Made by a program: the position numbers and the translations under genes. A DNA stretch of 64,000 nucleotides from an uncultured Candidatus Peregrinibacteria bacterium (lineage in GTDB: Bacteria; Patescibacteriota; Gracilibacteria; Peribacterales; Peribacteraceae). Shown in pieces: positions 14,104 through 63,549 of this stretch. The notes under the pieces were generated by a model. The model did no database searches and was not told the origin of the DNA. It saw only the letters and a program-made list of their open reading frames with translations. Each line of letters starts with the position of its first letter. Position 1 is the first letter of the stretch. The DNA is taken from contig CAINVY010000003.1 of assembly GCA_903854335.1 (NCBI GenBank), forward strand, positions 21,955 to 85,954, in the 5' to 3' direction.

Positions 14104-14180
14104 GGGCAATTAGCTCAGCTGGCTAGAGCGCCACATTGACATTGTGGAGGTCACTGGTTCAAGTCCAGTATTGCCCACCA
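14104..14180 (+). tRNA. tRNA-Val(GAC), integration target of element 1
   Basis: GGGCAAT...ATTGCCC-ACCA, anticodon loop TTGACAT. Confidence 0.95.
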
Positions 14181-15847
14181 GATCTCTTCTTCTTTCCGAA
14201 GACATCCTCAATATCCTCTTTGGTTAGCCCCTTTGTGGTTCTACCCTTTTTCGGTAGGCTCGCGAACTTCTCAGGTACAAATCGGAAATAATACTGCACG
14301 GTGATATCCCACTTCGTTCGCTTCCCACCTGTTTCCCTTGGAGTTCGATCGAGTTCGACGCGGTCAATAAACAGATCAATCAGAATCTTCTTCTGTTTTC
14401 GACCTAGCTTGTCCAAATTGTATTTCACCGTCTTCGCTGCGCTCCTCAGTCCTTCGATCTCCTGTTCTTGTAGACCTGCCACTAGAAGCTCCTTCCCGAT
14501 ATCCTCGATTCGCCCTTCGATACGGTCAACCTCCTGCTGAACCGCCGCAGTCTTCTCGCTCGCCCTCTCGGCTCCATAAACACCATTGTCATATCCTTCC
14601 TCAATACGCTCCATTTTCAACTCCAGATTTGCCTTCTTTTCTCTCAATTTCAGCAATTCCTCATCCATATCCTCCAAGCGGCTTTTTCCGTAGCGCTCAT
14701 AATTGAAATACTCGCGGATGAACACTTCCGGATTCTTCAACGCCAATTTCACCCGCCCCCATGCAGCTTCTTCAAGAGGTTCGGTTGGAACCTCGAAAAC
14801 GGGATACTGCTTTCCATCCTTCTCAAACTGCTTCCTTCGGTAACTCCTCCCCCCCTTCATGCGGGGCTTGCCGGAGAACTTGGGGTGATGTGGCAAGGAA
14901 ACATCATAGATCTTCCCTGAGAGCAGATACGTATGATCCGTCGCTGTCTTTGCCTTTCGGGTAGTGCGCTTCTCCTGAGCCAGATTCCATGTCATTTCCG
15001 TGATGCAGGGAGGTATGGCAACGATCGTCCATTCCTCTTCCGGCAACGCGTTTCCTTCCTCATCTTTCGTTACCGCCGCAAACTCTCCTCGATAAAGAGA
15101 GTTTTGGATCATGTCTTCAATATGATGCACCGTCCATTTCCCTGCCCCCTTGCGTTTGTAGTACGCACTCTGTGGTACCCCCATATCGTTGAGCCGTGTC
15201 GCGATCTGTCCATATCCCATGTCCTCATATACGTACCAATGAAAGATCTTCTGAACCCGCTCCCTCTCTTTTGGGATGATCTCTAACTGCGTCCCTTTCC
15301 CGGAAGGATTCTTGATAGGCTTATACCCGTAAGGGATGCGCGTGCCGGTGTAGTTGCCCATCTCTGCGGATGCCACAATTCCCGAACGTGTTCGGCTCTT
15401 GATGAGTTCTCGCTCAAATTGAGCAATGGCACCGAAAATCTGAAAAATGAGATTCCCAATGGCTCCATTGAAGTTGATATTCTCCTGGAGAGATATGAAG
15501 CTGCATCCCGCCTTCTGCATACGCTCGAAAACCTCCAGCAAGTGCTTCAAGCTGCGCGAGAGACGGTCAATCTTCCACACGAGTACCGCGTCGAACTTCT
15601 TCTCGTCTACGGCCTTCAAAAGTTTTTGCAAACCAGCCCTCTCAACCTCCGATCCCGTGTGCACGTCCTCAAAGATCCACTCCTGTTTTGTCTCAAGATT
15701 GAGGGCTTTGTTTTGCTCCACATACTCTAAAAGGCGCTTCCGCTGCGATTCCAGACCATAACCGTCCATTTTCTGTTCCTGAGTAGAAACACGAATGTAA
15801 ATGGCAACGCGCCGCTTCCTAGCCATGTCTTGTGATTGAATCTCCAT
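14159..15847 (-). CDS. Large serine recombinase (integrase) 1
   Basis: VAIYIRVST catalytic Ser, VWKIDRLSRS, AQFERELIKSR, IPYGY, coiled coil; stop codon lies in the tRNA-Val T-loop. Confidence 0.95.
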   Translation of the reverse strand: MEIQSQDMARKRRVAIYIRVSTQEQKMDGYGLESQRKRLLEYVEQNKALNLETKQEWIFEDVHTGSEVERAGLQKLLKAVDEKKFDAVLVWKIDRLSRSLKHLLEVFERMQKAGCSFISLQENINFNGAIGNLIFQIFGAIAQFERELIKSRTRSGIVASAEMGNYTGTRIPYGYKPIKNPSGKGTQLEIIPKERERVQKIFHWYVYEDMGYGQIATRLNDMGVPQSAYYKRKGAGKWTVHHIEDMIQNSLYRGEFAAVTKDEEGNALPEEEWTIVAIPPCITEMTWNLAQEKRTTRKAKTATDHTYLLSGKIYDVSLPHHPKFSGKPRMKGGRSYRRKQFEKDGKQYPVFEVPTEPLEEAAWGRVKLALKNPEVFIREYFNYERYGKSRLEDMDEELLKLREKKANLELKMERIEEGYDNGVYGAERASEKTAAVQQEVDRIEGRIEDIGKELLVAGLQEQEIEGLRSAAKTVKYNLDKLGRKQKKILIDLFIDRVELDRTPRETGGKRTKWDITVQYYFRFVPEKFASLPKKGRTTKGLTKEDIEDVFGKKKRSGGQYWT

Positions 15848-16386
15848 GACTAGATTCTACCCTTCGTACATGAGTAATCCAATTAGGCATGTTATGCCTT
15901 TGTTTTCTTCAATCCATTGAATAAACCTACATATTGCATTGCCTGCGCAATCTCAAAAAGATACCCTTTAGGATTCTCCTCTGGGTAGAGATATTCAAAA
16001 CGAAATATGTTTCCGTGCGAGGTCGTATATGATCCCCCATTTTGCTCATCGAAGGCTTCTTCTTTGGCGAACCCCTTGTTGCGCTGATCGTGAGTCTTCT
16101 GGATAACAGAAGCTCCGTTCCGACGCCGAGGATGAAGCAGCCTGCTTGAAATCCCCTATTATAGAGCGGAACTTGCATTTTATGTAAATAGTGTCCCCAG
16201 TGTACTCTGAGGATAGAGGAGCACTGTTTTTTGCTGTGCGTAGAACAAAAAGTCGAAATGAAGAACGTGTTGACGGAGATGCCTTCTGACTTGGATCATT
16301 TTTTCATAAAAATGAAAAGGACGAAAAGTAACATGCCAAATACGATCGACAACGCCGCCGCGCCTGCGATCAAAGTTGAAACAAGA

Positions 16387-16597
16387 ACCGCTGACCTTTC
16401 GTTTCGGAGAAAGGGCGGTATGCTTTCCTCGATCCCATCGTTGTAGGCGTATTCGCTTACGACCCGGCTTACCCGCAAATCAGAGCAAAAAGGGGCATCC
16501 TGCCTCTGGTCATCGCTCTGATAGGCGGGAAACCGCTTACAACGATGGGATCGCCATGCGGGGTGTCCCTTCTTGTGCGATTTCTTCTCTCATCGTT
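16387..16597 (+). ncRNA. Candidate structured leader/antisense RNA
   Basis: Several hairpins, a 14-bp closing stem and a competing 20-bp inverted repeat (16430-16449 / 16534-16553). Confidence 0.5.
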
Positions 16598-17578
16598 ATG
16601 AAAAATATGCGATTCCTCTCATGGATACTGATCCCAACATTCTGCTTTTCTATCTTTGAGGCAACTGCCGCGCAGCCGCAAAATATGACCAAACTGACGC
16701 CTCAACAGAGAGTTGCCCTTCGTAAGTCCTTGCGACTACAAAGGCACTCAGGCTCACCTGTAACTCAACAATCATCGGCATCCTCCGTTTCCAGTTCTTC
16801 ATCGTCTTCGGTGCAGTCCATGTTTCTTCCCTACTGTAAGAAATCAAGTGATGCACAGTGGAACTGCAACGATTGGTCTGCGTGTTCTTATCACGAAGGT
16901 GATGAACTAGCATGGCCTCCCACACAACCGACATGGACGCAGACTGGCTACTGCTATCCCGCCGACGGCAGCACATGTCGTGGTCGCATTAGCCCCAATG
17001 TCCGAAACTGCACGCCAACTACCGATGAACAACAAGCTCAAGATGCTCAGCAGCAACAACAGACACAGCAATACAATCAACAACAAGCAGCGCAGCAACT
17101 GCAACAGTTACAGCTCGATACACAGCACAATTACAAGACCATGACAGACAATCTCACGAAGATGAACAGCCAGCTTCCTTCGTTCGAGGGGGCAACTTCA
17201 TTGGAGCTATTTTCCGTTGTCAACAAGTACACGGATGAAGTATCGAAAATGAAAGTGTACGTCGATGCCATCTACCAGTTGCAACTGTCAGACCAACCTG
17301 CGATCAACAGCATCGTCGATGCTACCAATACACTCGTCGATCAGTTCAATACCATTGCCGGATCCGCAGCCGATCTCCAATTACAACAAGTCCAGGAAGA
17401 GAATCAGCAACTAGAGCAGCAGCAACCGCAACAGCAGCAATCGCAAATTGACCAGCAGCTACAGGCGCAGAAGCACAAGCAGGATTGCGCCAACCTACGA
17501 ACATTTCTTTTCGCTCGTTATGGTGCCTTTGGATCGTCAGAAACAATGGATCGTTACCACCAGGCTGGTTGTCCATAG
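16598..17578 (+). CDS. Secreted protein with Cys-rich TSP1-like motif and Gln-rich coiled coil
   Basis: Signal peptide from ATG 16598; WNCNDWSAC..TQTGYC..RNC; poly-Q tracts. Confidence 0.7.
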   Translation: MKNMRFLSWILIPTFCFSIFEATAAQPQNMTKLTPQQRVALRKSLRLQRHSGSPVTQQSSASSVSSSSSSSVQSMFLPYCKKSSDAQWNCNDWSACSYHEGDELAWPPTQPTWTQTGYCYPADGSTCRGRISPNVRNCTPTTDEQQAQDAQQQQQTQQYNQQQAAQQLQQLQLDTQHNYKTMTDNLTKMNSQLPSFEGATSLELFSVVNKYTDEVSKMKVYVDAIYQLQLSDQPAINSIVDATNTLVDQFNTIAGSAADLQLQQVQEENQQLEQQQPQQQQSQIDQQLQAQKHKQDCANLRTFLFARYGAFGSSETMDRYHQAGCP

Positions 17579-17605
17579 GGATGTCTCAACTCCGATCTCG
17601 GCACT

Positions 17606-19198
17606 ATGCTATCTGGACAAAACCAAAGGCTGAGACCGAGCGACATTCGTCAGATGTTGGAAGAAATACAGCGACGATTGCCCGAGAGACCCACGGCAGT
17701 CGATGAGCCTTTCGTCGTACCGGAACGTTTGATGAAATCATCATGGGTCAGTTCCTCCAATATCTCGTTGCCATCGAAATCGCTACAAGAAATCGCGAAC
17801 CTCATGGCTGCATATCTTGGAATCATCACGCCGGTAGAGGTTAGATACGTGAACACATCCTTCGGAACAGCAGGAACATATCGCGTCTTGGGTCACTCGT
17901 ACCGAGTCATAGAAGTGGCAGCAACGAACTCGGATTTCAATGTCGATCAGATCCTCGCAACACTCGCGCACGAATCGACTCACCACTACCTTCATGAGCA
18001 CAAAGTACAAGTTACTGAGATCATGACGGATCTCACCGCTGTGTATCTCGGATTCGGTGAACTGTTGTATCGAGGTTACAAGACAGTTGAGCGGTACAGA
18101 TCACGAACGAAGGTGGGCTACATTCAATGGCAAGATGTCAAACTCGCAGTACAGATGGCGGTGGAAATGAGGGGATGGAATATCCCTTTGCGACCATGCC
18201 CATTCTGCAAGAGTCACATTCGCCATAACATAGAGCAGTGTCCTCACTGTCATCGTATTCTACGAGAACATGTAGAGCGGAAGGAAACGGTACCGCAAGC
18301 ACCGCCGCATCGACAGAAGCGCCGACACATCACGTTCCTGAAAGACAACTTTGCGTACTGGTTATCGAAAATATGGGATCATTTTTTATACATCGAACTT
18401 GCGGCAATGGGGCTGCTCGTTCTCCTCGGTTTGTATTTGGCTCACAACCAGTCACTTCGCCAATCCTCCGATGTTCCTCTTCCTGTGGTCACGGAAGCCG
18501 TGAAGCAAAGTGAAGATGGGTTCGGTTCTCAGCCAAGAGAATATGGAAACATATTTCAGTCCGTTGGCTCTGCTCTCGCAAGCAATGTGCAGAGCGTCGC
18601 GACATTTCAGGGTACGAAACTCGACTACTTGGGAAGAACCGTAAACGAATACAAATACGACAATGCGGATCTGGACATAGCTCTGTTCCAACAAAAATGG
18701 GATGCACTCAAGAGCGAATACGACCTGCTCCGAGTAGACCTTGAGAATGGGAATGTGCAGGATCGAACGAATGTCCTCAACTCCTTCAAGACCGATCTCT
18801 TCTTTTGCGCCAACGAACTTTGGGACAGAGCCTATGAAAACGACCAGATCGAAACGATCTCACAATTACAAACGGATCTCTCCACAATCATCCATAGCCC
18901 TCCTTTCGCTCGGTATTTGCAGGAATCACAGCTCTCACAACCCGCTTTCGATGTGCTCAGTGGCATGACTGATTCCATTGGATTCCTGAGAACAAAGTAT
19001 TCCCTGAATCTTCTGGAACGTAATTTACAAACGTGCCGCTCCAATCCAGATTGTTCCGATGAGAAGCAACTCGTGGATCATTTCAATCAGCTCCTGCCTG
19101 ACTACAACTCGAACATCAACGATGCTTCTACGATGTTCTCCCAGTTCATGAAATTGGTGGATGTGTATCTCCTCTTCCCCGGGCAAAATACTCTTTAG
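17606..19198 (+). CDS. Membrane protein with HEXXH metallopeptidase domain and Zn ribbon
   Basis: LAHESTHH..E..TD..AVYLGFG; CPFC..CPHC; single TM; helical C-terminal domain. Confidence 0.75.
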   Translation: MLSGQNQRLRPSDIRQMLEEIQRRLPERPTAVDEPFVVPERLMKSSWVSSSNISLPSKSLQEIANLMAAYLGIITPVEVRYVNTSFGTAGTYRVLGHSYRVIEVAATNSDFNVDQILATLAHESTHHYLHEHKVQVTEIMTDLTAVYLGFGELLYRGYKTVERYRSRTKVGYIQWQDVKLAVQMAVEMRGWNIPLRPCPFCKSHIRHNIEQCPHCHRILREHVERKETVPQAPPHRQKRRHITFLKDNFAYWLSKIWDHFLYIELAAMGLLVLLGLYLAHNQSLRQSSDVPLPVVTEAVKQSEDGFGSQPREYGNIFQSVGSALASNVQSVATFQGTKLDYLGRTVNEYKYDNADLDIALFQQKWDALKSEYDLLRVDLENGNVQDRTNVLNSFKTDLFFCANELWDRAYENDQIETISQLQTDLSTIIHSPPFARYLQESQLSQPAFDVLSGMTDSIGFLRTKYSLNLLERNLQTCRSNPDCSDEKQLVDHFNQLLPDYNSNINDASTMFSQFMKLVDVYLLFPGQNTL

Positions 19199-19478
19199 AC
19201 AACGAACGAACCGGATGTTCGCTTGAATAGCAACAACTCACTGGCCGGACAGTGACTTTCTCATCGCCAATCCAACGACTTGACCGAACTAGGACTATAG
19301 AAATCAACTACCAAACGGCCAGCAGAAGGCAAATGCTCCACGCAATCCTGCCTTTCAAATTAGCACTCATCAACTACCGAGATGCTCTTCTGAGAATGAA
19401 AGACATGCTCGAATGTAAAGCGGAGATGGATTCGCAGAAAAGTTTGCAGATGTCGTTGTTCGAGTGATAGTGTGAGGC

Positions 19479-20243
19479 ATGAAAGCCAACTCACTCACCC
19501 CTCGTCTCCGCGACGCGCTAGCAATGGCGACGCGGGTTCATGCTGACATGAAACGAAAGGTTGATGGGCAACCGTATATCGTCCATCCTCTCGCGGTCTT
19601 CAAATGGCTCCAGGAGCGGGACGCAGATGAGGACACACAGATCGCAGGCCTCCTGCACGACGTGCTGGAAGACGCACCGTCAGAGAAGAGAGAGACATAC
19701 CGTAAGGAAATCGAGGAAACGTTCGGCTCCGGCGTTCTTGCGCTTGTGGAGAGCGTTACAGAGGAGGACAAGAGTCTTTCGTGGCGGGAACGGAAGGAGC
19801 GCTATCTTGAACGCCTCAAGGGCGCTGAACGCCCGTCTCTCCTTATCGCGTGCGCCGATCTCATTCACAACACCCAGAGCCTCCAGACGAGCCTTGCGAC
19901 GGAAGGAGAAGCCGTCTGGAGCAAGCTGAACGCGCCGAAGCAACAGCAACTCTGGGTCATTGTCCAGACTATGGAATTGCTAACCGAGAAGTTGGGAGGA
20001 AGGTACACACTTCCACTCCGTCCGTGTATTCCTGCTATCTCGATGCACCCTCCACGAACAGAGTGCCTCTGGTTCAATTATGACGACCCCTGGGACGGCA
20101 CAGAAGTGACATGTCCGGTGTGCGAATGGAAAGGCGTCGTCCGGGACGGAGACATGTCCACCTACGACACGCTGCTCGATTTCTCCTGCCCCGTCTGTGA
20201 GGAGATCCTTGTTATCGTGCGATTCCCTAATCGAGAGGTATGA
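19479..20243 (+). CDS. RelA/SpoT-type HD hydrolase (Mesh1/SAH-like) with C-terminal Zn finger
   Basis: H..RK..G.PYIVHP, AGLLHDVLED, ADLIHN; CPVC..CPVC. Confidence 0.85.
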   Translation: MKANSLTPRLRDALAMATRVHADMKRKVDGQPYIVHPLAVFKWLQERDADEDTQIAGLLHDVLEDAPSEKRETYRKEIEETFGSGVLALVESVTEEDKSLSWRERKERYLERLKGAERPSLLIACADLIHNTQSLQTSLATEGEAVWSKLNAPKQQQLWVIVQTMELLTEKLGGRYTLPLRPCIPAISMHPPRTECLWFNYDDPWDGTEVTCPVCEWKGVVRDGDMSTYDTLLDFSCPVCEEILVIVRFPNREV

Positions 20244-20250
20244 TTCCATC

Positions 20251-20586
20251 ATGCAAAATACTGACGACCAAGTTTCGGTATCGAGAGAGGGAAACAATAT
20301 TTTCATTCGCATTGACGAAACAATTACCCTTCACGAGATGGTTGGTATGAAGAAAGTTGATCCCCATCGAAAGGGACGCAAGAAGGTATTGCAAGAACAG
20401 AAGATTGGTGACGACTTTCACCGTAAATCAAAATCTTGGCGAAAACTTGAACGTGTCATCGACCGAGAGAATAACAGGTACAAGGAAACGGTGACCGACT
20501 CCTCAGGAAAGGTCCTACTTTCCTGCGACGAGCCTCTCAGCGAACACAGAGAGCATGGTAATGCGAAGAATATACATTCTCAGTAA
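20251..20586 (+). CDS. Hypothetical basic protein
   Basis: ATG 7 nt after the HD gene stop; ends EPLSEHREHGNAK. Confidence 0.65.
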   Translation: MQNTDDQVSVSREGNNIFIRIDETITLHEMVGMKKVDPHRKGRKKVLQEQKIGDDFHRKSKSWRKLERVIDRENNRYKETVTDSSGKVLLSCDEPLSEHREHGNAKNIHSQ

Positions 20587-20678
20587 GAGGATCATTTCCA
20601 CGAGGTCGTTGTTCCAATTCGGTTCTGGGTGTAATTTGACAACTGCCTTTGGCACTATACTTTCTTACGGGCTGGCAC

Positions 20679-22145
20679 ATGATTGGACAAACAATCAAAG
20701 GTGAACGTGGCCTCACGGTAACCATTGAACGAGAGATCGGTAACGGTAGCTTCGGCACAGTCTTTCTTGCTGAGGGAAAGGACAAACAGAACTACGCCGT
20801 AAAAGTCATTGCACCCGTAACAGACAATGCGGTGCGGCTATCTTTCCGTAAGGAGATTGAAAGTACCTTCGGATTGAAACACGAGAATCTCCTCATTCCT
20901 CTCGATGTTGGAGTTTGCTCAGTTGGATCAAATGAGGGACTCTTCATGATCAGCGAGTATTGCGCCGGAGGAGATTTCCGCGCAGAAGTGTCGAGCTACG
21001 CTGTGGCACCACCAGCCACGGAGATAATTTCAGGAAAGTTCATGCAGATTCTTTCCGGTCTTTCAGCGCTGCATACGCGAGCGATACACAGAGACATCAA
21101 ACCAGAGAACGTGCTAATCAGCGGAGGAGGAATCTTGAAACTATGCGATTGTGGGCTAGCAAAGTTTGTGGACGAGGCCACTAGAACGCTAACGTTCAAG
21201 GGAGGGGGCACGCGCGATTACATGGCACCCGAGGTATGGAAGGTGGAATCCGTGAGCCCTGCAACTGATCTATATGCAGTAGGGGTTATGATCTTCGAGG
21301 CCTTCACGGGACAAAGACCTTTCCCTACGTCAGATGTCACCCTTCTTCGTGAGATGCACATCAGTAAGACTGCGCCGAGAGCCCGTAACCTCAATGCGAA
21401 GGTGCCGATGCACATTGATGGAGTAATTGCCAAACTGCTCTTGAAGAACCCACGAGACCGCTTTCAGACCGCTCAAGAAGTCATGGATGCTATGCGCGAG
21501 CCTCCTCCTGCGACTACTCAGGCCTCCTCCCTTGCTGAGCGGATGCGCCGCCATAAAGATGCAGAAGAGCAAAAACGCACGGAACGTGAACGTGCTACGG
21601 AAGAGCGGCAAAGAGAAGAGGCTCGTAGCGTCGATCATGAGCAAGGAGTAATCAATCTCATTGATGGTGTGGTTGAGCAGGTCAACGCGCAATCACCAGA
21701 CGTTCGCATCACGAAGCAGGTTTCCCATGGAGGAGGTGCAATCTATGGTTTTGGCAATCGCTCGCTACACGTCGAGTTTTTTGCCAAGGGCGCAATGTTG
21801 AAGCCAGACCCACGAGCGCCTGGGCTTGCCGAGGAATTGAAGAAGCGCCACGTCACGCACGGTGGGAACCTGAGCATTGTGGAGAATGGCGAATTACGGG
21901 AAGGATGGAACATAGCTCTCATAACGCCTCCTGATACACCTGCCGAGTGGAAGATCGTTGAGACCCGTATGTCTCCATTTACTGGCCGAAGGTATAACTA
22001 CGAACCTACACCAACAGATGCCCCCACGTTCGCAAAGAACCTCGCCTATCACTTTATGAAATCGATGCACACCCATAACTTGAAAGACCAACCTCTGACA
22101 AGAGAAGAAGTAGAAATGGTGCTGACTCACCTGATTCCTGAATAA
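20679..22145 (+). CDS. Hanks-type Ser/Thr protein kinase with coiled coil and unknown C-terminal domain
   Basis: GNGSFG, AVK, HRDIKPEN, DCG (at the DFG position), YMAPE, DLYAVG. Confidence 0.92.
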   Translation: MIGQTIKGERGLTVTIEREIGNGSFGTVFLAEGKDKQNYAVKVIAPVTDNAVRLSFRKEIESTFGLKHENLLIPLDVGVCSVGSNEGLFMISEYCAGGDFRAEVSSYAVAPPATEIISGKFMQILSGLSALHTRAIHRDIKPENVLISGGGILKLCDCGLAKFVDEATRTLTFKGGGTRDYMAPEVWKVESVSPATDLYAVGVMIFEAFTGQRPFPTSDVTLLREMHISKTAPRARNLNAKVPMHIDGVIAKLLLKNPRDRFQTAQEVMDAMREPPPATTQASSLAERMRRHKDAEEQKRTERERATEERQREEARSVDHEQGVINLIDGVVEQVNAQSPDVRITKQVSHGGGAIYGFGNRSLHVEFFAKGAMLKPDPRAPGLAEELKKRHVTHGGNLSIVENGELREGWNIALITPPDTPAEWKIVETRMSPFTGRRYNYEPTPTDAPTFAKNLAYHFMKSMHTHNLKDQPLTREEVEMVLTHLIPE

Positions 22146-22178
22146 GTACGATTCAGCGAGTGGCTCTATGAAGATGGT

Positions 22179-22760
22179 TCATCGATGTTGTCTGAGATAC
22201 CGAAGGATTTGCTCATGGGCTTCTTTGATTGGGAGCTTCTCATTGAAACGAAACTGTTGATTGAGTTGCTGTGACTTCTGCTCAGATAGTCCAACAAAAT
22301 CAGCAAGTACCCGCAGTGCTGCGATTTTGTCCCACAATTTGATTTCATGAACCTCAATCTCTTCCTCCCCGGCAACGCGACGTACTTTGATGGACGCTAT
22401 CGCACGTCTAGTACGTTCGGGAAGTGCGCTCACCGGCTTCATTCGAGGAGTCGCTCCATCGAAGTCCATAATGTCACCAATATCGCTGAATCCGACACTG
22501 GCAAGTTCTGCAACAACATGTGCTAGATCCACCTTCGCTTTCTCCAGTTCCGGCTTCCGTAGCTCCTCGATTTTCGCCAAAACCTCAGCATTTCTCAGCA
22601 ACCTACTTGCTTGCACCTCCAACGAATGGTCTTCACCGTGATAACCCGCCGCCCTTGCTGCTCCCTTTCCATTCGCAGATTTGGCGTATTCACAAGCGAA
22701 GCGAAGCTGCCGCATCGTAAGTGTATGTTTGTTGCCTCCAGAGTTCTTGGACTTACTCAT
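22179..22760 (-). CDS. Phage terminase small subunit
   Basis: LTMRQLRFACEY..NGKGAARAAGY..QASRLLRN..V..IE and KLWDKIAAL pattern of the Terminase_2 family. Confidence 0.85.
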   Translation of the reverse strand: MSKSKNSGGNKHTLTMRQLRFACEYAKSANGKGAARAAGYHGEDHSLEVQASRLLRNAEVLAKIEELRKPELEKAKVDLAHVVAELASVGFSDIGDIMDFDGATPRMKPVSALPERTRRAIASIKVRRVAGEEEIEVHEIKLWDKIAALRVLADFVGLSEQKSQQLNQQFRFNEKLPIKEAHEQILRYLRQHR

Positions 22761-22947
22761 AGACTCAATACGAAACAGGGATTTCTACCCCTCCACTCGC
22801 CCTAGTAATTCCGGAAAGAGTCAGTGGCTTCCTGATCTCCTTCGCTACGACCCGAAAACTGCCTCCCGTTTTTGCCTTTTCCTCAGGCGAAAGACGCTCG
22901 TGCACCAGGGAGAGCGAACAAAGGAAGAAATTGTACCCGCCGTACGG

Positions 22948-22957
22948 TTGCCCACCA
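22948..22957 (+). repeat. attR core of element 1
   Basis: TTGCCCACCA identical to tRNA-Val 14171-14180. Confidence 0.85.
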
Positions 22958-53429: not shown

Positions 53430-53505
53430 GTCACGGTAGCTCAGTTGGTAGAGCACAGGACTCATAAGCCTGGGGTCGCCGGTTCAATCCCGGCCCGTGA
53501 CACCA
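53430..53505 (+). tRNA. tRNA with CAT anticodon (elongator Met or Ile2), target of element 2
   Basis: GTCACGG...CCGTGAC-ACCA, loop CTCATAA; the paired 1-72 position argues against an initiator tRNA. Confidence 0.9.
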
Positions 53506-55187
53506 TACGGGTCACCAGAGTGATTATCGCTCTCGGTGGCCTTTGCGTGCTTTGGGATCAGAAACTCAATTCTGATGCGCTCAGGGAAGATTTCTATGCG
53601 TTTTACGAGTTCTTGGACGATGCGCCGCTTGGTTTCAAAGTCCAAGCTCAAGAGGCTCTTGGCGTAGCGTTTTGCGATCTCCTGCGCTGACATCAGACGG
53701 TCCTTCTTCTCATCCTCGTCCATCAGCTCGCTACAAATGCGATCACGTTCGAGAATCACTTTTTCCTTCTCGCCACGAACTTCCCTTCCCTTTGCCTCGA
53801 TTTTCCCTTCCTCTTGATACTTGAGGCCCTTCTCGTAGAGATTACAGGCTCGCAGATACTCTTGGTCGAGTTCCACAATCATTTGATCGCAAGCGTCGCG
53901 CTCGGCCGTGAGCTTGGGAATATCCAATGATTTTTGCTGTTCGGCTTGGACGCGTTCGATGAACGAACGCGGGTCTGCCAGTAAACCTTCGATCTCACTC
54001 CACACTTTCGCTTCCAGCACTTGCCCTGAAATCTGACGATTGTTGCAACGCTGAATAGCTTTGTCTGCGGTCTTCTTGCAACGGTAATTGCAGTACTTAC
54101 CGACAAGAACTTTCGCACCTTTCACCCGTTTCCACTTTGGCTGCATGTAGCCGCCATACGCCGATTTGCAATCTTCTCGCCCGCACCACACCTTGCCCGA
54201 GAGCAAATATTCATTCTTCACATTTCGAGGCTCAATTTGGGCAAGAAGTACCTGAGCCTTCTCCCACAATGATCTGTTGATGATCTGTGAGCAAGGGATG
54301 GCCCTCCACTCCTCTCTTGGGTTCGGGACATCCTTTTTCTTTTTGGTTTTAGGATCGCGTTTTGTTGTCCGTTTGTTGAAGTAGTAAATGCCCGTGTACG
54401 CTTCTTGTCGAAGGATGCGGGTGATCGTTTTGATATGCCAATAGTTCGGAGGATTCTTTTTGCGAAAACTCTCAAGGTCAGCTTTTTTCTTTTTTAACTC
54501 CACATATTTCTTATCGGCTTTGGTGGGAGTCTTCATTGCGTTGAGCCGCCGCTGGATTTCATAGGCAGTCATTCTCCGCTTTACATACCAATTAAAAACC
54601 TTCTTCACGATTTCTTCCTCCTCATGGTTCACAGACATTTTTTGCGTCTCCTTATCAACGTCATACCCAAAGGGCGGATATTTCCCTCCAACCCACTTCC
54701 CTGCTTCCGCCGCGGCTTCTCTCCCAGAAAATGTACGCTCAAGAATCAGATCTCGCTCCATTTCGGCAATGATGCCAAGCAATCCGATCATAAACCTTCC
54801 CATGTGCGTCGTGGTGTTCACTTCGGTCTGGGTCGTGGCGATGAACCCAACGCCGATTTCCGTGAGGTATTCAATGGCATTGAGCAGAAGCCTTGTCTTG
54901 CGAAAGAAGCGGTCGAGTTTCCAGACCATCACAACATCAATCTCTCCCTCCCTTGCAGCCTCGAAGAGTTTCGGCATCTCTTCTCGTTCATTGATCTCCG
55001 AGGCTCCCGAGTATGCGAGGTCCTTGTAGAGATGTTTCGGGTCGAAATCGTATTCGTCACTGTGTGCTTCGAGCCACTTGAGCATTTGCGATTTTTGCAC
55101 ATCAGCACCGTACTTTTCCGCTTGTTCATCGGTGCTCACTCGAATGTAAAGCGCAACGCGCTTTTTGGCTTTCATTACATCCTTCAT
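53484..55187 (-). CDS. Large serine recombinase (integrase) 2
   Basis: VALYIRVST, VWKLDRFFR, AEMERDLILER, PPFGY, Zn ribbon (WCGREDC..YRC..RC), coiled coil; stop in the tRNA T-loop; ATG 55187 is 7 nt below TATAAT. Confidence 0.95.
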   Translation of the reverse strand: MKDVMKAKKRVALYIRVSTDEQAEKYGADVQKSQMLKWLEAHSDEYDFDPKHLYKDLAYSGASEINEREEMPKLFEAAREGEIDVVMVWKLDRFFRKTRLLLNAIEYLTEIGVGFIATTQTEVNTTTHMGRFMIGLLGIIAEMERDLILERTFSGREAAAEAGKWVGGKYPPFGYDVDKETQKMSVNHEEEEIVKKVFNWYVKRRMTAYEIQRRLNAMKTPTKADKKYVELKKKKADLESFRKKNPPNYWHIKTITRILRQEAYTGIYYFNKRTTKRDPKTKKKKDVPNPREEWRAIPCSQIINRSLWEKAQVLLAQIEPRNVKNEYLLSGKVWCGREDCKSAYGGYMQPKWKRVKGAKVLVGKYCNYRCKKTADKAIQRCNNRQISGQVLEAKVWSEIEGLLADPRSFIERVQAEQQKSLDIPKLTAERDACDQMIVELDQEYLRACNLYEKGLKYQEEGKIEAKGREVRGEKEKVILERDRICSELMDEDEKKDRLMSAQEIAKRYAKSLLSLDFETKRRIVQELVKRIEIFPERIRIEFLIPKHAKATESDNHSGDPYGVTGRD

Positions 55188-57499: not shown

Positions 57500-57886
57500 T
57501 TATTGCCCTGCCTCTGCTTTCATGAGCATCGTGGCACAGTCAATTTCGCTGAGATTGGAAGGTCCAAAGTATTTGTCGAGGCAATCATTGTATGCATCCC
57601 CTTCTGCATTGTACCGCTCTGTTTTCTTACAAATTGGATTGTTGGGGTTTTGGATGCAATCGATGCCATCGGTGTATCCCTTCACTGCAAGCTTATCCTT
57701 TATGCATTTTTTATCCCCCTCCTCGTTTGCTTTTACTTTCGCGATACAAGCGTTGTACCCCGAGCTTTCCCTGAGCGCGGCTTTCTGATCTTCCAATTGC
57801 TTCACCTTGTCTGCGGGTGAACTGCCGCAACCAGTGAGTGAAAGAAGAAGGAGTGGAAGAGTGATAAAAGTGAGGAAGCGATTCAT
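57500..57886 (-). CDS. Cys-rich lipoprotein
   Basis: Lipobox LTGC, six further Cys. Confidence 0.7.
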   Translation of the reverse strand: MNRFLTFITLPLLLLSLTGCGSSPADKVKQLEDQKAALRESSGYNACIAKVKANEEGDKKCIKDKLAVKGYTDGIDCIQNPNNPICKKTERYNAEGDAYNDCLDKYFGPSNLSEIDCATMLMKAEAGQ

Positions 57887-57940
57887 GGGAGAGGGGGAAA
57901 ATGAACTTCAAAAATGAAACGAATAAGAAAAGGATAATTT

Positions 57941-58585: not shown

Positions 58586-58701
58586 AAATGCAGGGGGGAC
58601 AGCAATCGATTATACTCTAGCTAATGCCCTGTAAAGGCGTTCTATGCAACGATAGAACTATTGAAGGGCGGTCCATGGGAGAGGGAAAGTGACAGAATTT
58701 C

Positions 58702-59292: not shown

Positions 59293-59398
59293 ATTATTAT
59301 GAAGGAAATAAGATTGAGGATAATTATCCTCGGCTCTCCTATTAAGCGCAATACATTGTGTTTTCGACGCAATAAGTCAAAACGGCTATAATATAGTC

Positions 59399-59872
59399 AT
59401 GTCGATTGCACTCTCAGAACATCGGCGGATCGCGAATAAAAACAACGCAAAGATCGAAGGTGTGGAGACGGCGGAAGGAAAGGAGGTCGTTCGATGGAAC
59501 ACACGCAAGCACCTGAGAAAGTATTCCAACCGTGGCAGACCCTCAAAACTCACACCCGCTGTTGTCAGAGAATTGGTGCGGTCTTTCAAGATTGGATTCA
59601 ATGTGACGGAAGCTTGTGAGGCTGCGGAAATCTCACGGGAGAGCTTCTATAAATATATGAGAGAAGATGAGGTTTTTTCTGACAAAATTACGCGTTCTCA
59701 GAATGATCTCGTCTTCAAAGCACACAAGGTCATCGCAGATGGCATTTACAAGAAAAAGGATTGGAGGCTCGCTTTGAAATTGTTGATAGTGCGCGACCCT
59801 GAGCATTACAGCCCGCGCTACATAATGAAGTTCGGCAAAAAATGTGAGTGTGGAAACTATCTCGGGGAATAA
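59399..59872 (+). CDS. HTH protein resembling a terminase small subunit
   Basis: RGRPSKLTP..V..L..G....EAC..A.ISRESFYKY...D..F; the assignment to TerS is inferred. Confidence 0.6.
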   Translation: MSIALSEHRRIANKNNAKIEGVETAEGKEVVRWNTRKHLRKYSNRGRPSKLTPAVVRELVRSFKIGFNVTEACEAAEISRESFYKYMREDEVFSDKITRSQNDLVFKAHKVIADGIYKKKDWRLALKLLIVRDPEHYSPRYIMKFGKKCECGNYLGE

Positions 59873-59875
59873 TCG

Positions 59876-60823
59876 GTGGGCTGCGTCGCTTGCTCAATAA
59901 AAGCCGTGTGTGATGGAGAGATAGAAGGTAATCTTAAAAGGCTTTCGATTGATGTAATGACCCGCTTTCTTCTACCAAGATGGCTGACGTCCTCTCGTCA
60001 AAAAATGAAATACTTTTGTTCAATACAAGAGGTACGCGATTTTATTTTGAATATGCGAACAAAATACAATTTGCCATACGACGGGGTGAGCACAGTGCGA
60101 GAAGGGAGAGACGCCGATGGTCATCGGTATGTAACGTTGCATACGCCAGAAACGTACTTCAATGAATTTGAAAAAGTTGCATTGTTTACTATGGAGTGCA
60201 TCGATTTTACAAAGCACTTTGATGGATTTCCTGCACCATTAAGTTATCCATTTGTCATGCACGTTCTCACAGGGAATTACGTTGGCAATGCAAGATATAA
60301 GGTGCGAGGAGCAATGATAATATCGGAAAGAGTCTGCCTACAGATAAGTGTTGGTGAGCCGTTGGACAAGAAGGACATGCACAAACTGAACACCCTTTTA
60401 GTAGAAGAACAGAAAAAAAATCCCACTCCCAAAATTGCTAATCAATCAAAGTACCACGTCCATGAGGGAATCTATCGAACACGGGAGTTGAAATTGAAGT
60501 CAATTCGCGTCGATGTTTTTTGTCAGCTAAACAACGATGATCGAAACGAATTGAACCGCATACTTGTGAGAAGAATCTCAGAAGCAGATTTTGAGAAGAA
60601 GCTCGAACCTTCTTTAGATGAGACGATAGAAATCTTACAAAAAAAGGCGAAGGACTCAAAGCTGACATTCTCTCAAATAGCTGCGGAAAAGTTGGCAACG
60701 AAAATGGGGAACGATTCGACAGAAGATTTTGATCGAAAAAGAGAAGCTGAGCTTGAGGATGAAGCTGGAAAACTGAGGACTCGCGCATCGCGGTTCCTAG
60801 CGAAACAAAAACAATTCAGATAA
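59876..60823 (+). CDS. Hypothetical protein (possible regulator)
   Basis: Long ORF with basic helical C-terminus; start uncertain. Confidence 0.65.
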   Translation: MGCVACSIKAVCDGEIEGNLKRLSIDVMTRFLLPRWLTSSRQKMKYFCSIQEVRDFILNMRTKYNLPYDGVSTVREGRDADGHRYVTLHTPETYFNEFEKVALFTMECIDFTKHFDGFPAPLSYPFVMHVLTGNYVGNARYKVRGAMIISERVCLQISVGEPLDKKDMHKLNTLLVEEQKKNPTPKIANQSKYHVHEGIYRTRELKLKSIRVDVFCQLNNDDRNELNRILVRRISEADFEKKLEPSLDETIEILQKKAKDSKLTFSQIAAEKLATKMGNDSTEDFDRKREAELEDEAGKLRTRASRFLAKQKQFR

Positions 60824-60889
60824 CAATCAAGGTGGATCAAGCCCTTTCAGCTATTTGTAACATTGCGCGTTTTCCGAATGGGACACTCA

Positions 60890-60913
60890 ACTTGACCCCG
60901 CGAGGGGTCAAGT
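60890..60913 (+). promoter_or_regulatory. 10-bp GNRA hairpin covering the ribosome-binding region
   Basis: ACTTGACCCC-GCGA-GGGGTCAAGT ends 1 nt before ATG 60915. Confidence 0.6.
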
Positions 60914-60914
60914 A

Positions 60915-61157
60915 ATGACCCAACTATTGAATCGATCACGGGCAAGGAGAACGTCCCCCATCACATCTGTTGACGATGTTGTTTGGGAGATCTTGTACAC
61001 CGAAGAATCGGAGGAGAGACAGCAAGCACTCGATGAGGTTTGCAGGATCATTTATGAACATGCCGTCACGCACGGCTTTTTCAAAGTGGAGGAGTCAATC
61101 GAGAAGCAGAACACCACACTCACTCCTTCATTTATTTCTTCCCCTCTGTGTCTATGA
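60915..61157 (+). CDS. Small hypothetical protein
   Basis: 80 aa; ATGA overlap with the SpoVG-like gene. Confidence 0.6.
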   Translation: MTQLLNRSRARRTSPITSVDDVVWEILYTEESEERQQALDEVCRIIYEHAVTHGFFKVEESIEKQNTTLTPSFISSPLCL

Positions 61158-61411
61158 AGGTATCCGAAGTTCAAATCGTTCCCGTGAAACCTGACGATGG
61201 TCTGGTCGCCTTCGCAGCGTGTGTCATCGATGACAGTTTCTATCTCGGTTCCATCGCCATCTTCACACGACTCGATGGTGGTTACCGTCTCGTCTACCCG
61301 ACGAAGAAGATCGGTAACCGTCATTTGCACTACCACCACCCGATTTCAAAGGAGGCAAGTAAAGCCATTGAGGACGCCATCCAAACGCGAGTCCAAGAAC
61401 TTTTTTCTTAA
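61154..61411 (+). CDS. SpoVG family nucleic-acid-binding protein
   Basis: MKVSEVQI..GLVAFA..VIDD.F....I.I..G..LVYP.KK..HPI. Confidence 0.8.
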   Translation: MKVSEVQIVPVKPDDGLVAFAACVIDDSFYLGSIAIFTRLDGGYRLVYPTKKIGNRHLHYHHPISKEASKAIEDAIQTRVQELFS

Positions 61412-61430
61412 CTTCCTTCCCACTCATGTT

Positions 61431-63446
61431 ATGACAAGTAATAACGAGAACGGTGCTCCTCTCTGGATACAGAAGTTCGTCCATCGGAACGAACCGCTTC
61501 AAGAAGACCCCGCCTTCCTAGAAGCCCAGAAGTTCCTTAACTATTTCACAGGGCATGTCATCCAGTACCTTCATGACGAAGACCCTGCGAAAAACCCAGA
61601 CAAGGCCTTCTGCACTCAACATTTCGATCCACAGGAGGCGACGCGGAAACAATTGGAAGGATGCGGGGTGTTCTTTACCCCAAACGCTTTCAAGGGAGCG
61701 CGGAGGACCGAATGTCTCGACAAGGTTCAGTCCGTTTTCGTCGACATCGATCTTGCGAAGGAAGGAGACGGGACTCCACGAGAAGAAATCGAAAAACGAA
61801 AGACTGAGGCACTTGTGAAGGTGATGTCTCTTCCGCTGAGGCCTCATGGGGCATGGTACACAAAGAACGGCCTTCAGGTCGTCTGGCTTCTGCAACCATC
61901 TGGAAAGGAAGCGAAGGAGCGTTTCGACGAAGTGGAGGCAATGCTGATCGCGATCTTGGACGCCGATCCCAATGCGAAGGATGTTACAAGGGTTCTTCGG
62001 CTCCCAAACTTCTTACACCTCAAAAATCCATTCGATCCCTACCTATGCCAACTCGTTTATAACGAGATGGACAGGGCGCGTTTTGATCTCGATGAGGTAC
62101 TGGGCACTCTGCGTACCATAGAAGTTTTTGGAGGGAAGACGACTGGTGCGACAAACGAGCACTCTCGGAAAGTTGAACTGAAAAAATGGCAGGAATCGAA
62201 AGACGGTGTTTCGCTTGGGAATCGTAATGCAGCCGCTACAACTGTTGTAGGCCGCATCCTCCACGATCTCGCCGAAGAACTATGGGAAACAGTTGGGTTC
62301 GGTGGCCTGAAGGCATGGAACGAACAAAACACACCTCCTCTGCCCGAAAAGGAGCTACGTAGCGTCTTTGACAGCATCTCTGAAAGCGAGAGACGAAGAA
62401 GGAAATCTATTCTCGATTCTCGATTACCCCTATATACGAATCGAGATAATCGGGAAACCGAGCAGCCTTCATTTGCTCTCCAATCCATCGGCGACTTCCT
62501 AGCCGAGCCAGAGGAGACTCTGGATTGGGTCGTGCAAGATTTATTACCTGCTGGCGGTTTCTCCCTATGTGTCGCGAAGCCCAAGGTGGGCAAGAGCACA
62601 GAGGCACGCAACCTCATTCGGTGCGTTGCGCGAGGGGAGCCGTATCTGGGACGAGCGACTACGCAAGGGAAAGTGCTATATCTCGCCTTCGAGGAGAAGC
62701 GAGGTGAAGTGCGAAAGCAATTCGCGCAGATGGGACTTTCATCCGATGATCCCATCCTATTGTTTGTCGATTCAGCCCTTGATGGAGGATTGAAAGCCTT
62801 GGGCAAGGCAATTACAGAGGAACACCCCATCCTCGTTGTTGTTGATCCCTTGTTTCTGCTCCTGCCTGTCAAAGACGTCAACGATTACGCAGACCTCATG
62901 AAGAAATTGGACCCGCTTCGTTCGCTGGCTCGCGAGAACGGATGTCATATTCAGTCTACGCATCATGCAAACAAGATGGGAGGGTCAGGAGGTGATAGCG
63001 TCCTCGGCAGCACAGCGATCTTTGGGACGGTCGATACATTGATCCAGATGCGAAAGAGAGATGACGGATCTCGAATCATCCACAGCCTCCAACGCTATGG
63101 GACAGACTTGCCAGAGACAGTGTTGTCCCTTGACCGAGAAACGGGTCTAACTGCCACTCTCGGCGATCTCGAAACAATTCAGACAAGGGATGTCGAGGGT
63201 GACGTCTTTGATGCCATGGGGGACGAGGAGCTTACGGAACCTCAGATTCGTGACAAAGTTGGTGGCAATCAAAGACTAACCTCGAAGGCGATCCGAACAC
63301 TTCATGATGCGGGAAAGCTCACGCGCACGGGGAATGGAACGCGTGGCAGTCCGTTCCGCTATCGCCTCGCAGGTAAGGATGTAGCGGCTCCTGTGGTCGT
63401 GCAGACTGGCGGTTCCGAACCACAGATATCGATACCGTCGTGTTGA
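61431..63446 (+). CDS. Primase-helicase fusion (RepB-like primase + PriCT-1 + AAA_25/RecA-like helicase + wHTH)
   Basis: FVDID, TKNGLQVVW, D..KDVTRVLRLP; GNRN..WN..PPLPEKEL; AKPKVGKS, VVDPL, HHANK, GSTAI. Confidence 0.85.
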   Translation: MTSNNENGAPLWIQKFVHRNEPLQEDPAFLEAQKFLNYFTGHVIQYLHDEDPAKNPDKAFCTQHFDPQEATRKQLEGCGVFFTPNAFKGARRTECLDKVQSVFVDIDLAKEGDGTPREEIEKRKTEALVKVMSLPLRPHGAWYTKNGLQVVWLLQPSGKEAKERFDEVEAMLIAILDADPNAKDVTRVLRLPNFLHLKNPFDPYLCQLVYNEMDRARFDLDEVLGTLRTIEVFGGKTTGATNEHSRKVELKKWQESKDGVSLGNRNAAATTVVGRILHDLAEELWETVGFGGLKAWNEQNTPPLPEKELRSVFDSISESERRRRKSILDSRLPLYTNRDNRETEQPSFALQSIGDFLAEPEETLDWVVQDLLPAGGFSLCVAKPKVGKSTEARNLIRCVARGEPYLGRATTQGKVLYLAFEEKRGEVRKQFAQMGLSSDDPILLFVDSALDGGLKALGKAITEEHPILVVVDPLFLLLPVKDVNDYADLMKKLDPLRSLARENGCHIQSTHHANKMGGSGGDSVLGSTAIFGTVDTLIQMRKRDDGSRIIHSLQRYGTDLPETVLSLDRETGLTATLGDLETIQTRDVEGDVFDAMGDEELTEPQIRDKVGGNQRLTSKAIRTLHDAGKLTRTGNGTRGSPFRYRLAGKDVAAPVVVQTGGSEPQISIPSC

Positions 63447-63527
63447 GGGCTTTGATGGTTTTTGCGTTGAACAAGCGTCATTTCCCTGACAGACCCTATA
63501 CTCAATTCAACGACTAAAAGATATGAT

Positions 63528-63549
63528 CTCTGGTGACCCATCCCACCAT
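63528..63549 (+). repeat. attR of element 2
   Basis: CTCTGGTGACCC-ATCC-CACCAT; the arm is inverted relative to 53509-53520 and the core matches 53501-53506. Confidence 0.9.

What the first reader, a model, noticed from the sequence alone, without database searches (positions are those of the whole stretch)
14104..63549. tRNA-CCA-targeting serine-integrase elements whose integrase C-terminus is swapped by recombination
Seen in sequence: two separate elements (14171-22957 and 53501-63549) share one layout. A large serine recombinase points at a tRNA 3' end, reads through the att core containing the tRNA ACCA (a Gly codon in both), and stops at the TGA complementary to the T-loop TTCA. Joining the ends by hand to make attP keeps the frame open in both. 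Int1 swaps YWT* for 60 aa (562 to 619 aa). Int2 swaps VTGRD* for 61 aa (567 to 623 aa from ATG 55187). The tails have similar segments at the same distance from the core: GG-QPYGGYNFFLCSLSL and GG-MGHQRSYLLVVELSI. A 60-codon open frame has roughly a 6% chance each at uniform base composition. Established: attP inside the integrase gene at tRNA targets is known for tyrosine integrases (Myxococcus phage Mx8, SSV1 type). Serine integrases normally need a separate directionality factor and are not typical tRNA integrators. Inference: this is a CPR element family with state-specific integrase isoforms that may set directionality or activity. I recognised no RDF gene.
Basis: partly seen in the sequence, partly recalled or inferred. 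Interest (0 to 1): 0.92.

Follow-up and report, generated by a model that had tools for sequence, protein, structure and literature searches.

The report
Serine integrase gene rewritten by integration
Two small mobile elements sit at the ends of tRNA genes, and their integrase gene crosses its own recombination site, so the enzyme loses a conserved 30-60 residue tail when the element integrates and should regain it on excision.

Summary
Both large serine recombinase (LSR) genes run into a convergent tRNA gene (Val, Met), place a Gly codon on the tRNA's CCA end and stop in the T-loop.

The tails are real coding sequence. Natural long-form homologs carry homologous tails. In 27 of 27 integrated family loci the frame puts Gly on the CCA. 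All 18 separate tail copies in 14 loci are in frame. Pooled pN/pS is 0.36 in the tail frame against 1.09 and 1.37 in shifted frames.

A complex model docks the tail on the last beta-hairpin and the base of the coiled coil, which is where directionality factors act in solved LSRs.

Not shown: excision in this sample, the activities of the two isoforms, and any role in directionality. A conserved small ORF upstream of int is an untested RDF candidate. I rate it a new variant of a known kind: an Mx8-like attP-in-int logic in a serine integrase.

The parts
14104..14180 (+). tRNA-Val(gac). Its last 10 nt (14171-14180, TTGCCCACCA) form the left copy of the att core.
14159..15847 (-). Int1, prophage (short) form, 562 aa. 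It ends GGQYWT*, with the last residues encoded by the reverse complement of the tRNA 3' end.
15895..16065 (-). Window copy of a conserved ~50-aa ORF (motif YPEENP...G-[VLI]-F-[DN]-G) found just upstream of int in the Int1 family. It is a candidate cofactor or RDF. This copy has no ATG/GTG/TTG start.
14181..22957 (.). Element 1, about 8.8 kb: int, two unknown ORFs (400 and 530 aa), an HD-domain protein, a Ser/Thr kinase, and a small terminase. No capsid or tail genes were recognised.
22179..22760 (-). Terminase small subunit gene. It starts 5 nt after the stop of the rebuilt long Int1.
22768..22956 (-). Tail 1: 63 codons (GGQ plus 60 aa), in frame with Int1 across the core. It is the only significant hit of the natural-long-form tail profile in the whole genome.
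22948..22957 (+). Right copy of the att core of element 1 (TTGCCCACCA).
53430..53505 (+). tRNA-Met(cat). The core CACCAT lies at 53501-53506.
53484..55187 (-). Int2, prophage (short) form, 567 aa from ATG 55187 (587 aa from TTG 55247). It ends YGVTGRD*.
53511..53521 (+). P' arm of attP2. It is a perfect 11-nt inverted repeat of 63530-63540.
59399..59872 (+). terS-like gene of element 2 (phrog_4102).
61197..63446 (+). Primase/helicase of element 2 (PriCT_1 + AAA_25).
63530..63540 (+). P arm of attP2 (the inverted-repeat partner).
63362..63547 (-). Tail 2: 62 codons (G plus 61 aa). The first ~30 aa are conserved with G002 (P0123) and G089. The last ~29 codons overlap the primase 3' end and are not conserved.
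63544..63549 (+). Right copy of the att core of element 2 (CACCAT).

Best explanation
Shown. Both loci are small integrative elements (8.8 and 10 kb) with satellite-like content: terS, primase/helicase, and no recognised virion genes. Each was inserted by its own large serine recombinase at the CCA end of a tRNA gene. The recombination core lies inside the integrase ORF, in a predicted disordered linker, and is read as a Gly codon (GGT or GGA, the complement of the discriminator plus CC).

Integration therefore replaces the last 30-60 residues with 3-5 residues read off the tRNA, ending at a T-loop TGA. Excision would restore the tail. The tail is a conserved protein segment under purifying selection. 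In a homolog it is predicted to form a beta-hairpin that pairs with the last strand of the integrase body and packs on the helices at the base of the coiled coil.

Inferred. The tail acts as a cis latch on the coiled-coil hinge, the place where directionality factors act in SPbeta and phiC31 integrases. On this reading the excised (long) form is the integration-competent enzyme. The prophage (short) form is a differently tuned enzyme: less active, excision-prone, or open to an RDF. The reaction then rewrites the enzyme's own gene each time it runs.
For: Layout and frame:
- The layout in the window is as described.
- Three of the 4 LSR genes in this genome run into a tRNA.
- In 27 of 27 integrated Int1-family loci, across at least 7 tRNA types, the int frame puts GGN on the CCA end.

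Tail is real and found independently:
- Homolog lengths are bimodal. Natural long forms carry tails homologous to the rebuilt ones: P0002 for Int1 and P0123 for Int2.
- A profile of 18 natural long-form tails gives a single significant hit in the six-frame translation of the genome, at window 22768-22992, E 1.1e-7.
- The same profile, iterated, finds 18 separate tail copies in 14 integrated loci. All are on the int strand, 4.6-11 kb upstream. All 18 have an in-frame TGGW, and the rebuilt proteins are 584-630 aa.
- The reverse profile, built only from the 18 tails of A4 (the window's tail 1 plus 17 attR copies), detects tails in 8 of 120 listed natural proteins.

Selection:
- pS exceeds pN in 13 of 13 tail pairs. 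omega is 0.09-0.36 in the 8 pairs where dS is not saturated.
- Pooled pN/pS is 0.36 in frame against 1.09 and 1.37 when shifted. Median open codons after the core are 54 against 22 and 5.

Structure:
- AF2 of the long form P0017 gives mean pLDDT 79, a disordered linker at 535-564 and a tail hairpin at 569-594.
- The complex model scores ipSAE 0.75 in three runs, with best control 0.02, at least 84% of contacts shared between runs and partner pLDDT at least 70. The calibration mark was reached by 58 of 80 solved complexes and 2 of 110 mismatched pairs, and holds only roughly here because my own alignment was used.
- Tail residues 566-575 pair with 516-525 and touch helices 355-382 and 461-469. 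The two chains are parts of one natural protein, so this is an intramolecular contact prediction.

Literature (passages read):
- In SPbeta the RDF packs between DBD2 and the CC inter-hinge and flanks Int F532 near the C-terminus, a residue said to matter for directionality.
Against: - No attP or attB junction was seen in this sample. The four runs hold the locus only as 3-5x contigs.
- No empty site could be recovered in relatives for either tRNA.
- The short form keeps every canonical LSR domain, so the tail may be dispensable for catalysis.
- A conserved small ORF upstream of int could be a conventional RDF, which would make a built-in switch unnecessary.
- Long forms also occur inside chromosomes, apparently as int_A + tail_B junctions of tandem arrays (L023 and G002:C60). 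The long form is therefore not strictly a marker of the excised state.
- For the Int2 family the evidence is thinner. There are three tails in all: the window's, P0123 (from G002:C60) and G089. Only 1 of the 10 further loci fetched and searched gave a tail with a weak two-sequence profile. The AF2 model of P0123 gives the tail low confidence, with pLDDT 56 or less.
- attP1 shows no clear arm symmetry (read by eye).
Confidence: 0.6

Rival explanations
1. The tail is a selected part of the integrase, but it only tunes stability, folding or attP binding of the integrating enzyme. The truncated prophage form is a weaker version of the same enzyme, as reported for Mx8 IntX. Directionality is set by a separate RDF, possibly the small upstream ORF.
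For: - A conserved ~50-aa ORF sits 25-100 nt upstream of int in at least 35 of the Int1-family loci.
- The short form retains all LSR domains.
Against: - The modelled docking site is the coiled-coil base rather than a DNA-facing surface.
- The window's copy of the small ORF has no canonical start.
- No such conserved ORF was found for the Int2 family with a crude search.
Confidence: 0.3
2. Neutral by-product. attP happens to lie near the 3' end of int, and the open frame beyond it has no function.
For: A 60-codon open frame has a chance of a few percent. Tail 2's last ~29 codons are indeed unconserved read-through.
Against: - Tails are recognisable by a protein profile across loci whose integrases are about 50% identical to the query.
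- Pooled pN/pS is 0.36 only in the tail frame.
- 18 of 18 copies are in frame.
Confidence: 0.04
3. The tail is made as a separate small protein from the attR end in the integrated state and complements the short integrase in trans, as a split protein.
For: - Gene callers annotate the tail as small ORFs. 72 of 73 representative hits to the tail profile are 43-188 aa.
- The tail docks as a separate chain in the model.
Against: - The N-terminal extensions of these ORFs are variable in length and unrelated in sequence, as expected from chance starts in host flanks.
- In the window no ORF of 60 aa or more is listed in the tail frame.
Confidence: 0.05
4. The conservation is at the DNA level only, reflecting an attP arm or a promoter.
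For: The first ~25 nt after the core must serve as the attP half-site.
Against: Conservation extends more than 100 nt beyond the core. Synonymous change is far in excess of non-synonymous change in one frame only.
Confidence: 0.01

Closest known systems
Myxococcus phage Mx8 integrase (IntP/IntX)
   Same: attP lies inside the int coding sequence. Integration at tRNA-associated attB sites creates a recombinant gene with a new 3' end and changed enzyme properties (review passage read).
   Different: Mx8 Int is a tyrosine recombinase, while these are large serine recombinases. Here the exchanged part is a conserved beta-hairpin modelled at the coiled-coil base, and the layout is shared by a family of hundreds of proteins.
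Characterised large serine integrases (SPbeta SprA, phiC31, Bxb1, LI/A118)
   Same: Same domain order. Foldseek's best matches are the full-length cryo-EM structures, with E from 1e-22 to 1e-16. Att cores are short. In element 2 the attP arms are inverted repeats.
   Different: As I recall, in those systems attP lies outside the int ORF, and they do not target tRNA 3' ends. The extreme C-termini of SPbeta (28 residues) and phiC31 (residues 590-605) were not built in the maps. No reaction-dependent isoforms are described in the passages I read.
Engineered integrase-RDF fusions (flexible linker at the Int C-terminus)
   Same: A module tethered by a ~30-residue flexible linker to the integrase C-terminus acts at the ZD and coiled-coil hinge. 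The natural long form has a ~30-residue disordered linker followed by a hairpin modelled at that region.
   Different: The fusions are synthetic and carry a whole RDF. The tail here is 30-60 aa and its effect is unknown. It is present in the excised state, where an RDF-like effect would oppose integration.
Tycheposons and PICI-like satellites at tRNA genes
   Same: Small tRNA-site elements with an integrase, a primase/helicase and terS. 27 of 937 carry an LSR (passage read).
   Different: That preprint's passages do not mention att cores inside the integrase gene. The supplements could not be seen.
SSV1-type archaeal integrases
   Same: attP lies within int, so the integration event alters the gene.
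   Different: These are tyrosine recombinases and the gene is split into two halves (recalled). Here the whole catalytic and DNA-binding body stays intact.

Membership tests
Large serine recombinase (serine integrase) | N-terminal resolvase catalytic domain with the catalytic serine motif | tested here: met
   PF00239 scores E 4.5e-39 for Int1 and 9.3e-34 for Int2. The motif Y-I-R-V-S-T is aligned in both.
Large serine recombinase (serine integrase) | Recombinase domain (DBD1) | tested here: met
   PF07508 is present in both proteins.
Large serine recombinase (serine integrase) | Zinc-ribbon domain with an inserted coiled coil | tested here: inconclusive
   Int2 matches PF13408. Int1 has no Pfam hit, but the model of its homolog P0017 has a beta-rich region followed by two long helices (390-422 and 428-475) and matches full-length LSR structures. 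Zinc ligands were not checked.
Large serine recombinase (serine integrase) | Short att sites with a small common core and imperfect inverted-repeat arms | tested here: met
   Cores are 4-15 bp across loci. attP2 has perfect 11-bp inverted arms 12 bp apart. attP1's symmetry is not evident.
Large serine recombinase (serine integrase) | Separate recombination directionality factor | not testable with these tools
   There is a candidate small ORF upstream of int in the Int1 family. It has no family assignment.
attP-within-int elements (Mx8 type) | The recombination core lies inside the int ORF, so integration changes the C-terminus | tested here: met
attP-within-int elements (Mx8 type) | Tyrosine recombinase chemistry | tested here: not met
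   Both integrases are serine recombinases. The elements work like this type but are not members.
PICI- or tycheposon-like satellite | Integrase plus replication gene plus terS, with no virion structural genes, at a tRNA site | tested here: inconclusive
   Element 2 has a primase/helicase and a terS-like gene. Element 1 has terS but no recognised replication gene. Several ORFs have no family. Helper dependence is not testable.

The most novel reading that the evidence does not exclude
The recombinase toggles its own directionality by editing its gene. The tail is a cis-acting latch on the coiled-coil hinge. The long form, made only from attP, integrates. The tail-less form, made only from the prophage, can synapse attL x attR, either with no RDF or only with a small cofactor. 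Each reaction would then install the isoform that catalyses the reverse one. That would be a natural, self-resetting two-state switch in a serine integrase family spread over many tRNA and tmRNA targets.
Probability: 0.3. Interest if true: 0.92.

Novelty: new variant of a known kind. Interest (0 to 1): 0.78.

Why it matters
Serine integrases are prized as one-way switches, and their reversal normally needs a separate factor. A natural family in which the reaction exchanges a selected C-terminal module, modelled at the coiled-coil hinge, offers a direct test of how that hinge sets direction. It may also provide compact, self-resetting recombinases.

The finding has practical consequences for annotation. 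In Peribacteria-like and related genomes, integrase C-termini and small 'hypothetical' ORFs at element ends are two halves of one gene. The family also provides precise boundaries for mobile elements in CPR genomes, which are otherwise hard to delimit.

Tried and rejected
Reads. One study of four lake-water runs holds the locus only as 3-5x Logan contigs. Contigs bridge the right junction of element 1 but show no joints, so nothing can be said about excision.

Empty sites:
- Relatives share tRNA-Val but have unrelated downstream DNA. The conserved downstream gene maps to window 26779-27426, which shows a larger accessory region rather than an empty site.
- In G002 the tRNA-Met sits at a contig end.
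- The right flank of element 2 was not found in 5 same-genus genomes.

Collection scans for excised circular forms:
- The metagenome scan and the first viral scan used generic catalytic-motif patterns and returned almost only distant LSRs.
- Two single-protein viral scans matched nothing.
- None of 8 whole-contig loci has terminal overlaps.
- It therefore remains unverified whether the long forms on short contigs are circles.

Third LSR. Its right end, at tRNA-Asn on contig C5, was not found.

Int2 family. A two-sequence tail profile found a tail in only 1 of 10 further loci. The AF2 model of P0123 gives the tail low confidence.

Small upstream ORF. It has no Pfam family, and the Atlas hits scored below 0.9.

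Generic repeat finding was uninformative.

Literature. Searches, and passages of Durrant 2022, gave no description of an LSR whose attP lies in its own ORF. This covers only the held library, and supplements are closed. One search returned nothing. Abe 2021 was seen only in a reference list and is not held.

Full report
**1. What is in the window.**
ARAGORN finds tRNA-Val(gac) at 14104-14180 and tRNA-Met(cat) at 53430-53505, both on the + strand. Converging on each is a long ORF. The first is 14159-15847(-), 562 aa. The second is 53484-55247(-), 587 aa from TTG or 567 aa from ATG 55187. Both have Resolvase and Recombinase domains, and Int2 also has the recombinase zinc ribbon. They are only 27% identical. 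Each ORF overlaps the tRNA by 22 nt, reads the complement of the ACC of the ACCA end as GGT (Gly), and stops at the TGA opposite the T-loop TTCA.

The window is G000:C3:21955-85954 of a 1.17 Mb, 13-contig genome. That genome has four LSR genes. A third one, on contig C5, also runs 42 nt into a tRNA (Asn).

**2. The other ends.**
The 10-mer TTGCCCACCA that ends tRNA-Val recurs exactly once in the window, at 22948-22957. For element 2 only CACCAT is shared (53501-53506 and 63544-63549). However, the sequence just inside the two ends is a perfect 11-nt inverted repeat (53511-53521 and 63530-63540). In the joined form this repeat flanks the core symmetrically with 12 nt between the arms. Its centre falls on the discriminator-C74 dinucleotide (AC) of the tRNA end. 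That this is the crossover dinucleotide is an inference.

Joining the ends by coordinates in a script gives 619 aa for Int1 (stop at 22765-22767, 5 nt before the terS start at 22760). For Int2 it gives 643 aa from TTG or 623 aa from ATG (stop at 63359-63361).

**3. The tails are homologous to natural proteins.**
A search with Int1 gave 347 proteins at E<=1e-20, of which 120 were listed at 46-70% identity. Their lengths are bimodal.
- About 552-565 aa: the C-termini are reverse-complement readings of tRNA ends (...GG then RWKT*, GATCRI*, GAQERT*, or long read-throughs).
- About 582-615 aa: I judged 18 by eye to carry a common tail, with the pattern G-x(3-5)-G-[GS]-Y-x-[FL]-F-x-[CF]-x-F, a loop, then ...V-[YV]-[LI]-x-E.

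The closest long form, P0002 (68% identical, 615 aa), has a tail clearly alignable with the translation of window 22768-22956(-).

A profile built only from those 18 natural tails was run against the six-frame translation of the whole genome. It gave one significant hit, C3 44722-44946, which is window 22768-22992(-), at E 1.1e-7. The next hit had E 0.36.

For Int2 there were 98 proteins at E<=1e-20. The short forms end Y-G-[VA]-T-G-[RQ]-[DN]*. One natural long form, P0123 (81% identical, 599 aa), has a tail alignable with the first ~30 residues of tail 2. A third tail of this type lies 8.9 kb upstream of the int of G089. It is in frame, behind a 12-bp core identical to the tRNA-Met end.

**4. 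Family-wide test.**
A scan of one genome per species returned 44 family loci, L013-L056. In 27 of them the int ORF runs into a convergent tRNA (Leu, Ala, Phe, Ile, Thr, Met or Val). Most are MAGs labelled Peribacteria, Peregrinibacteria, Gracilibacteria or similar. In 27 of 27 the int frame places GGN on the complement of N-CC (T|GGT or T|GGA).

The tail profile, iterated, found tail-coding pieces in 15 of these 27 loci, always on the int strand.
- 14 loci hold 18 separate copies, 4.6-11 kb upstream of int. Four of these loci have two copies.
- In L023 the tail is fused to a second, upstream LSR ORF.
- Of the 12 loci without a tail, 9 have less than 5 kb of upstream sequence. Three have more: L029, L031 and L046.

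All 18 separate copies have an in-frame TGGW. The identity blocks with the tRNA end are 4-15 nt. Rebuilt proteins are 584-630 aa against 549-570 aa for the short forms.

The reverse test also works. A profile of the 18 tails in A4 (the window's tail 1 plus 17 attR copies) detects C-terminal tails in 8 of the 120 listed natural proteins at E<=1e-3. Against 1.84 billion representatives the same profile finds 73 proteins, of which 72 are 43-188 aa. Those printed (24 of 73) have variable, unrelated N-terminal extensions. I read them as gene-caller ORFs at attR ends.

**5. Selection.**
Nei-Gojobori counts on 13 tail pairs give pS > pN in all of them. In the 8 pairs where dS is not saturated, omega is 0.09-0.36. 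The pair of the window tail and L020 gives 0.36.

Pooling seven pairs gives pN/pS of 0.36 in the tail frame, against 1.09 and 1.37 when the same aligned DNA is read one or two bases out of frame. The median run of open codons after the core is 54 in frame, against 22 and 5. The conservation is therefore at the protein level, not only at an attP arm.

Two caveats apply. Three pairs are copies within one locus. The tails were also ascertained as open pieces of at least 25 codons.

**6. Structure.**
AF2 of the natural long form P0017, with a 24-sequence alignment, gives mean pLDDT 79. After two long helices (390-422 and 428-475) come a helix, a hairpin (496-506 and 514-523), a disordered stretch (535-564) that contains the core Gly, and a tail hairpin (569-582 and 585-594; block pLDDT 83, 68 and 66). 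Foldseek's best matches are full-length LSR cryo-EM structures: an SPbeta-type integrase, phiC31 and Bxb1.

A complex job with residues 300-535 and 562-598 as two chains scored ipSAE 0.75 in three runs, against 0.02 for the best of three controls. At least 84% of contacts agreed between runs and the partner's pLDDT was at least 70. The calibration mark was reached by 58 of 80 solved complexes and by 2 of 110 mismatched pairs. It holds only roughly here because my own alignment was used. Tail residues 566-575 pair with 516-525. They also touch 355-382 and 461-469, which are the helices leading into and out of the long helical pair.

These are two parts of one protein, so this is an intramolecular packing prediction, not evidence of binding in a cell. 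In the solved structures the extreme C-termini were not built.

In phiC31 the RDF's hairpins contact the ZD tip and the CC hinge. [quoted passage not shown] The tail is thus modelled at the place where direction is controlled. That it controls direction is my inference.

**7. What argues for caution.**
- No excision product was seen, and the reads are too thin to tell.
- No empty site was recovered.
- Long forms also occur in chromosomes. In L023 a long-form LSR lies upstream of a short-form int at tRNA-Ile. In G002:C60 the long Int2 homolog is followed by a co-directional gene and the contig end, while the tRNA-Met sits at another contig's end. In L033 the long form is separated from a tmRNA by a tail plus ~700 bp, flanked by a 12-13-nt repeat of the tmRNA end. 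I read these as tandem arrays in which int of an outer element is fused to the tail of an inner one. This was not tested further.
- Long forms in MAGs labelled Bacteroidota or Saprospiraceae lie 2-4 kb from a tRNA or from a second tail copy. Their status is open.
- A conserved ~50-aa ORF lies 25-100 nt upstream of int in at least 35 of the Int1-family loci. It is an obvious RDF or cofactor candidate. The window's copy (15895-16065, -) has no ATG/GTG/TTG start.

**8. The surroundings of element 1.**
Low GC continues to about 26.5 kb. The 455-aa ORF at 22993-24360(-) was found in 1 of 30 relatives. In four relatives the DNA downstream of tRNA-Val matches window 26779-27426. So 22958 to about 26780 is further accessory DNA, perhaps a relic of earlier insertions. 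It holds no tail copy.

**9. Comparison and novelty.**
An attP inside int, with a changed C-terminus, is known for the tyrosine integrase of Mx8. LSR-bearing elements at tRNA sites are in print. I found no description of an LSR whose core lies in its own ORF with a conserved, reaction-dependent tail (searches; passages). This covers the held library only, and supplements are closed.

I rate it a new variant of a known kind. It is well supported as anatomy and as a selected protein segment. Its function is open.

Noticed in passing
window 22958-26780: Accessory, low-GC DNA lies between the right end of element 1 and the gene that follows tRNA-Val in relatives. It holds a 455-aa ORF found in 1 of 30 relatives and a Peptidase_C39_2 protein. 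It may be a relic of older insertions. No tail copy is present.
   Followed up: partly
window 43233-43470: The 3' half of tRNA-Ile plus about 40 nt of its downstream flank is repeated 125 nt downstream, with a degenerate T-arm. This is a partial tandem duplication or the scar of another element.
   Followed up: partly
G000:C5:164673-166319 (outside the window): A third LSR (537 aa, a different subfamily) reads 42 nt into tRNA-Asn in another frame (TGG read as Trp). Low GC extends about 18 kb. Its far end was not found.
   Followed up: partly
window 15895-16065 (-); L013-L056 upstream of int: A conserved ~50-aa ORF (YPEENP...GxFxG) lies directly upstream of int across the Int1 family. It has no known family. 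The window's copy lacks a canonical start codon and overlaps a longer unconserved 83-aa ORF in another frame.
   Followed up: partly
L020, L026, L037, L052 (two tail copies each); L023; L033; G002:C60: Arrays of tail-plus-core modules occur next to one integrase, and long-form integrases occur inside chromosomes. This suggests tandem accretion, in which the int of one element is fused to the tail of the next. L033 holds a ~0.9 kb int-less unit with a RelE-like small ORF between int and a tmRNA.
   Followed up: partly
L103, L104, L106 (Int2-related loci): Short forms ending HGGDAG[SNT]* have no tRNA called by ARAGORN in tRNA-only mode. From recalled knowledge, the ending looks like a tmRNA 3' end. 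tmRNA targets were seen in L033 and L042.
   Followed up: no
L024, L027, L039, L047: These loci are from MAGs labelled Gracilibacteria. From recalled knowledge, that group reads TGA as Gly (code 25). If so, the T-loop TGA would not stop the short form there, and some tail ends would shift. All my translations used table 11.
   Followed up: no
window 63359-63446: The unconserved end of the tail-2 frame overlaps the 3' end of the primase/helicase ORF on the opposite strand by 88 nt.
   Followed up: yes
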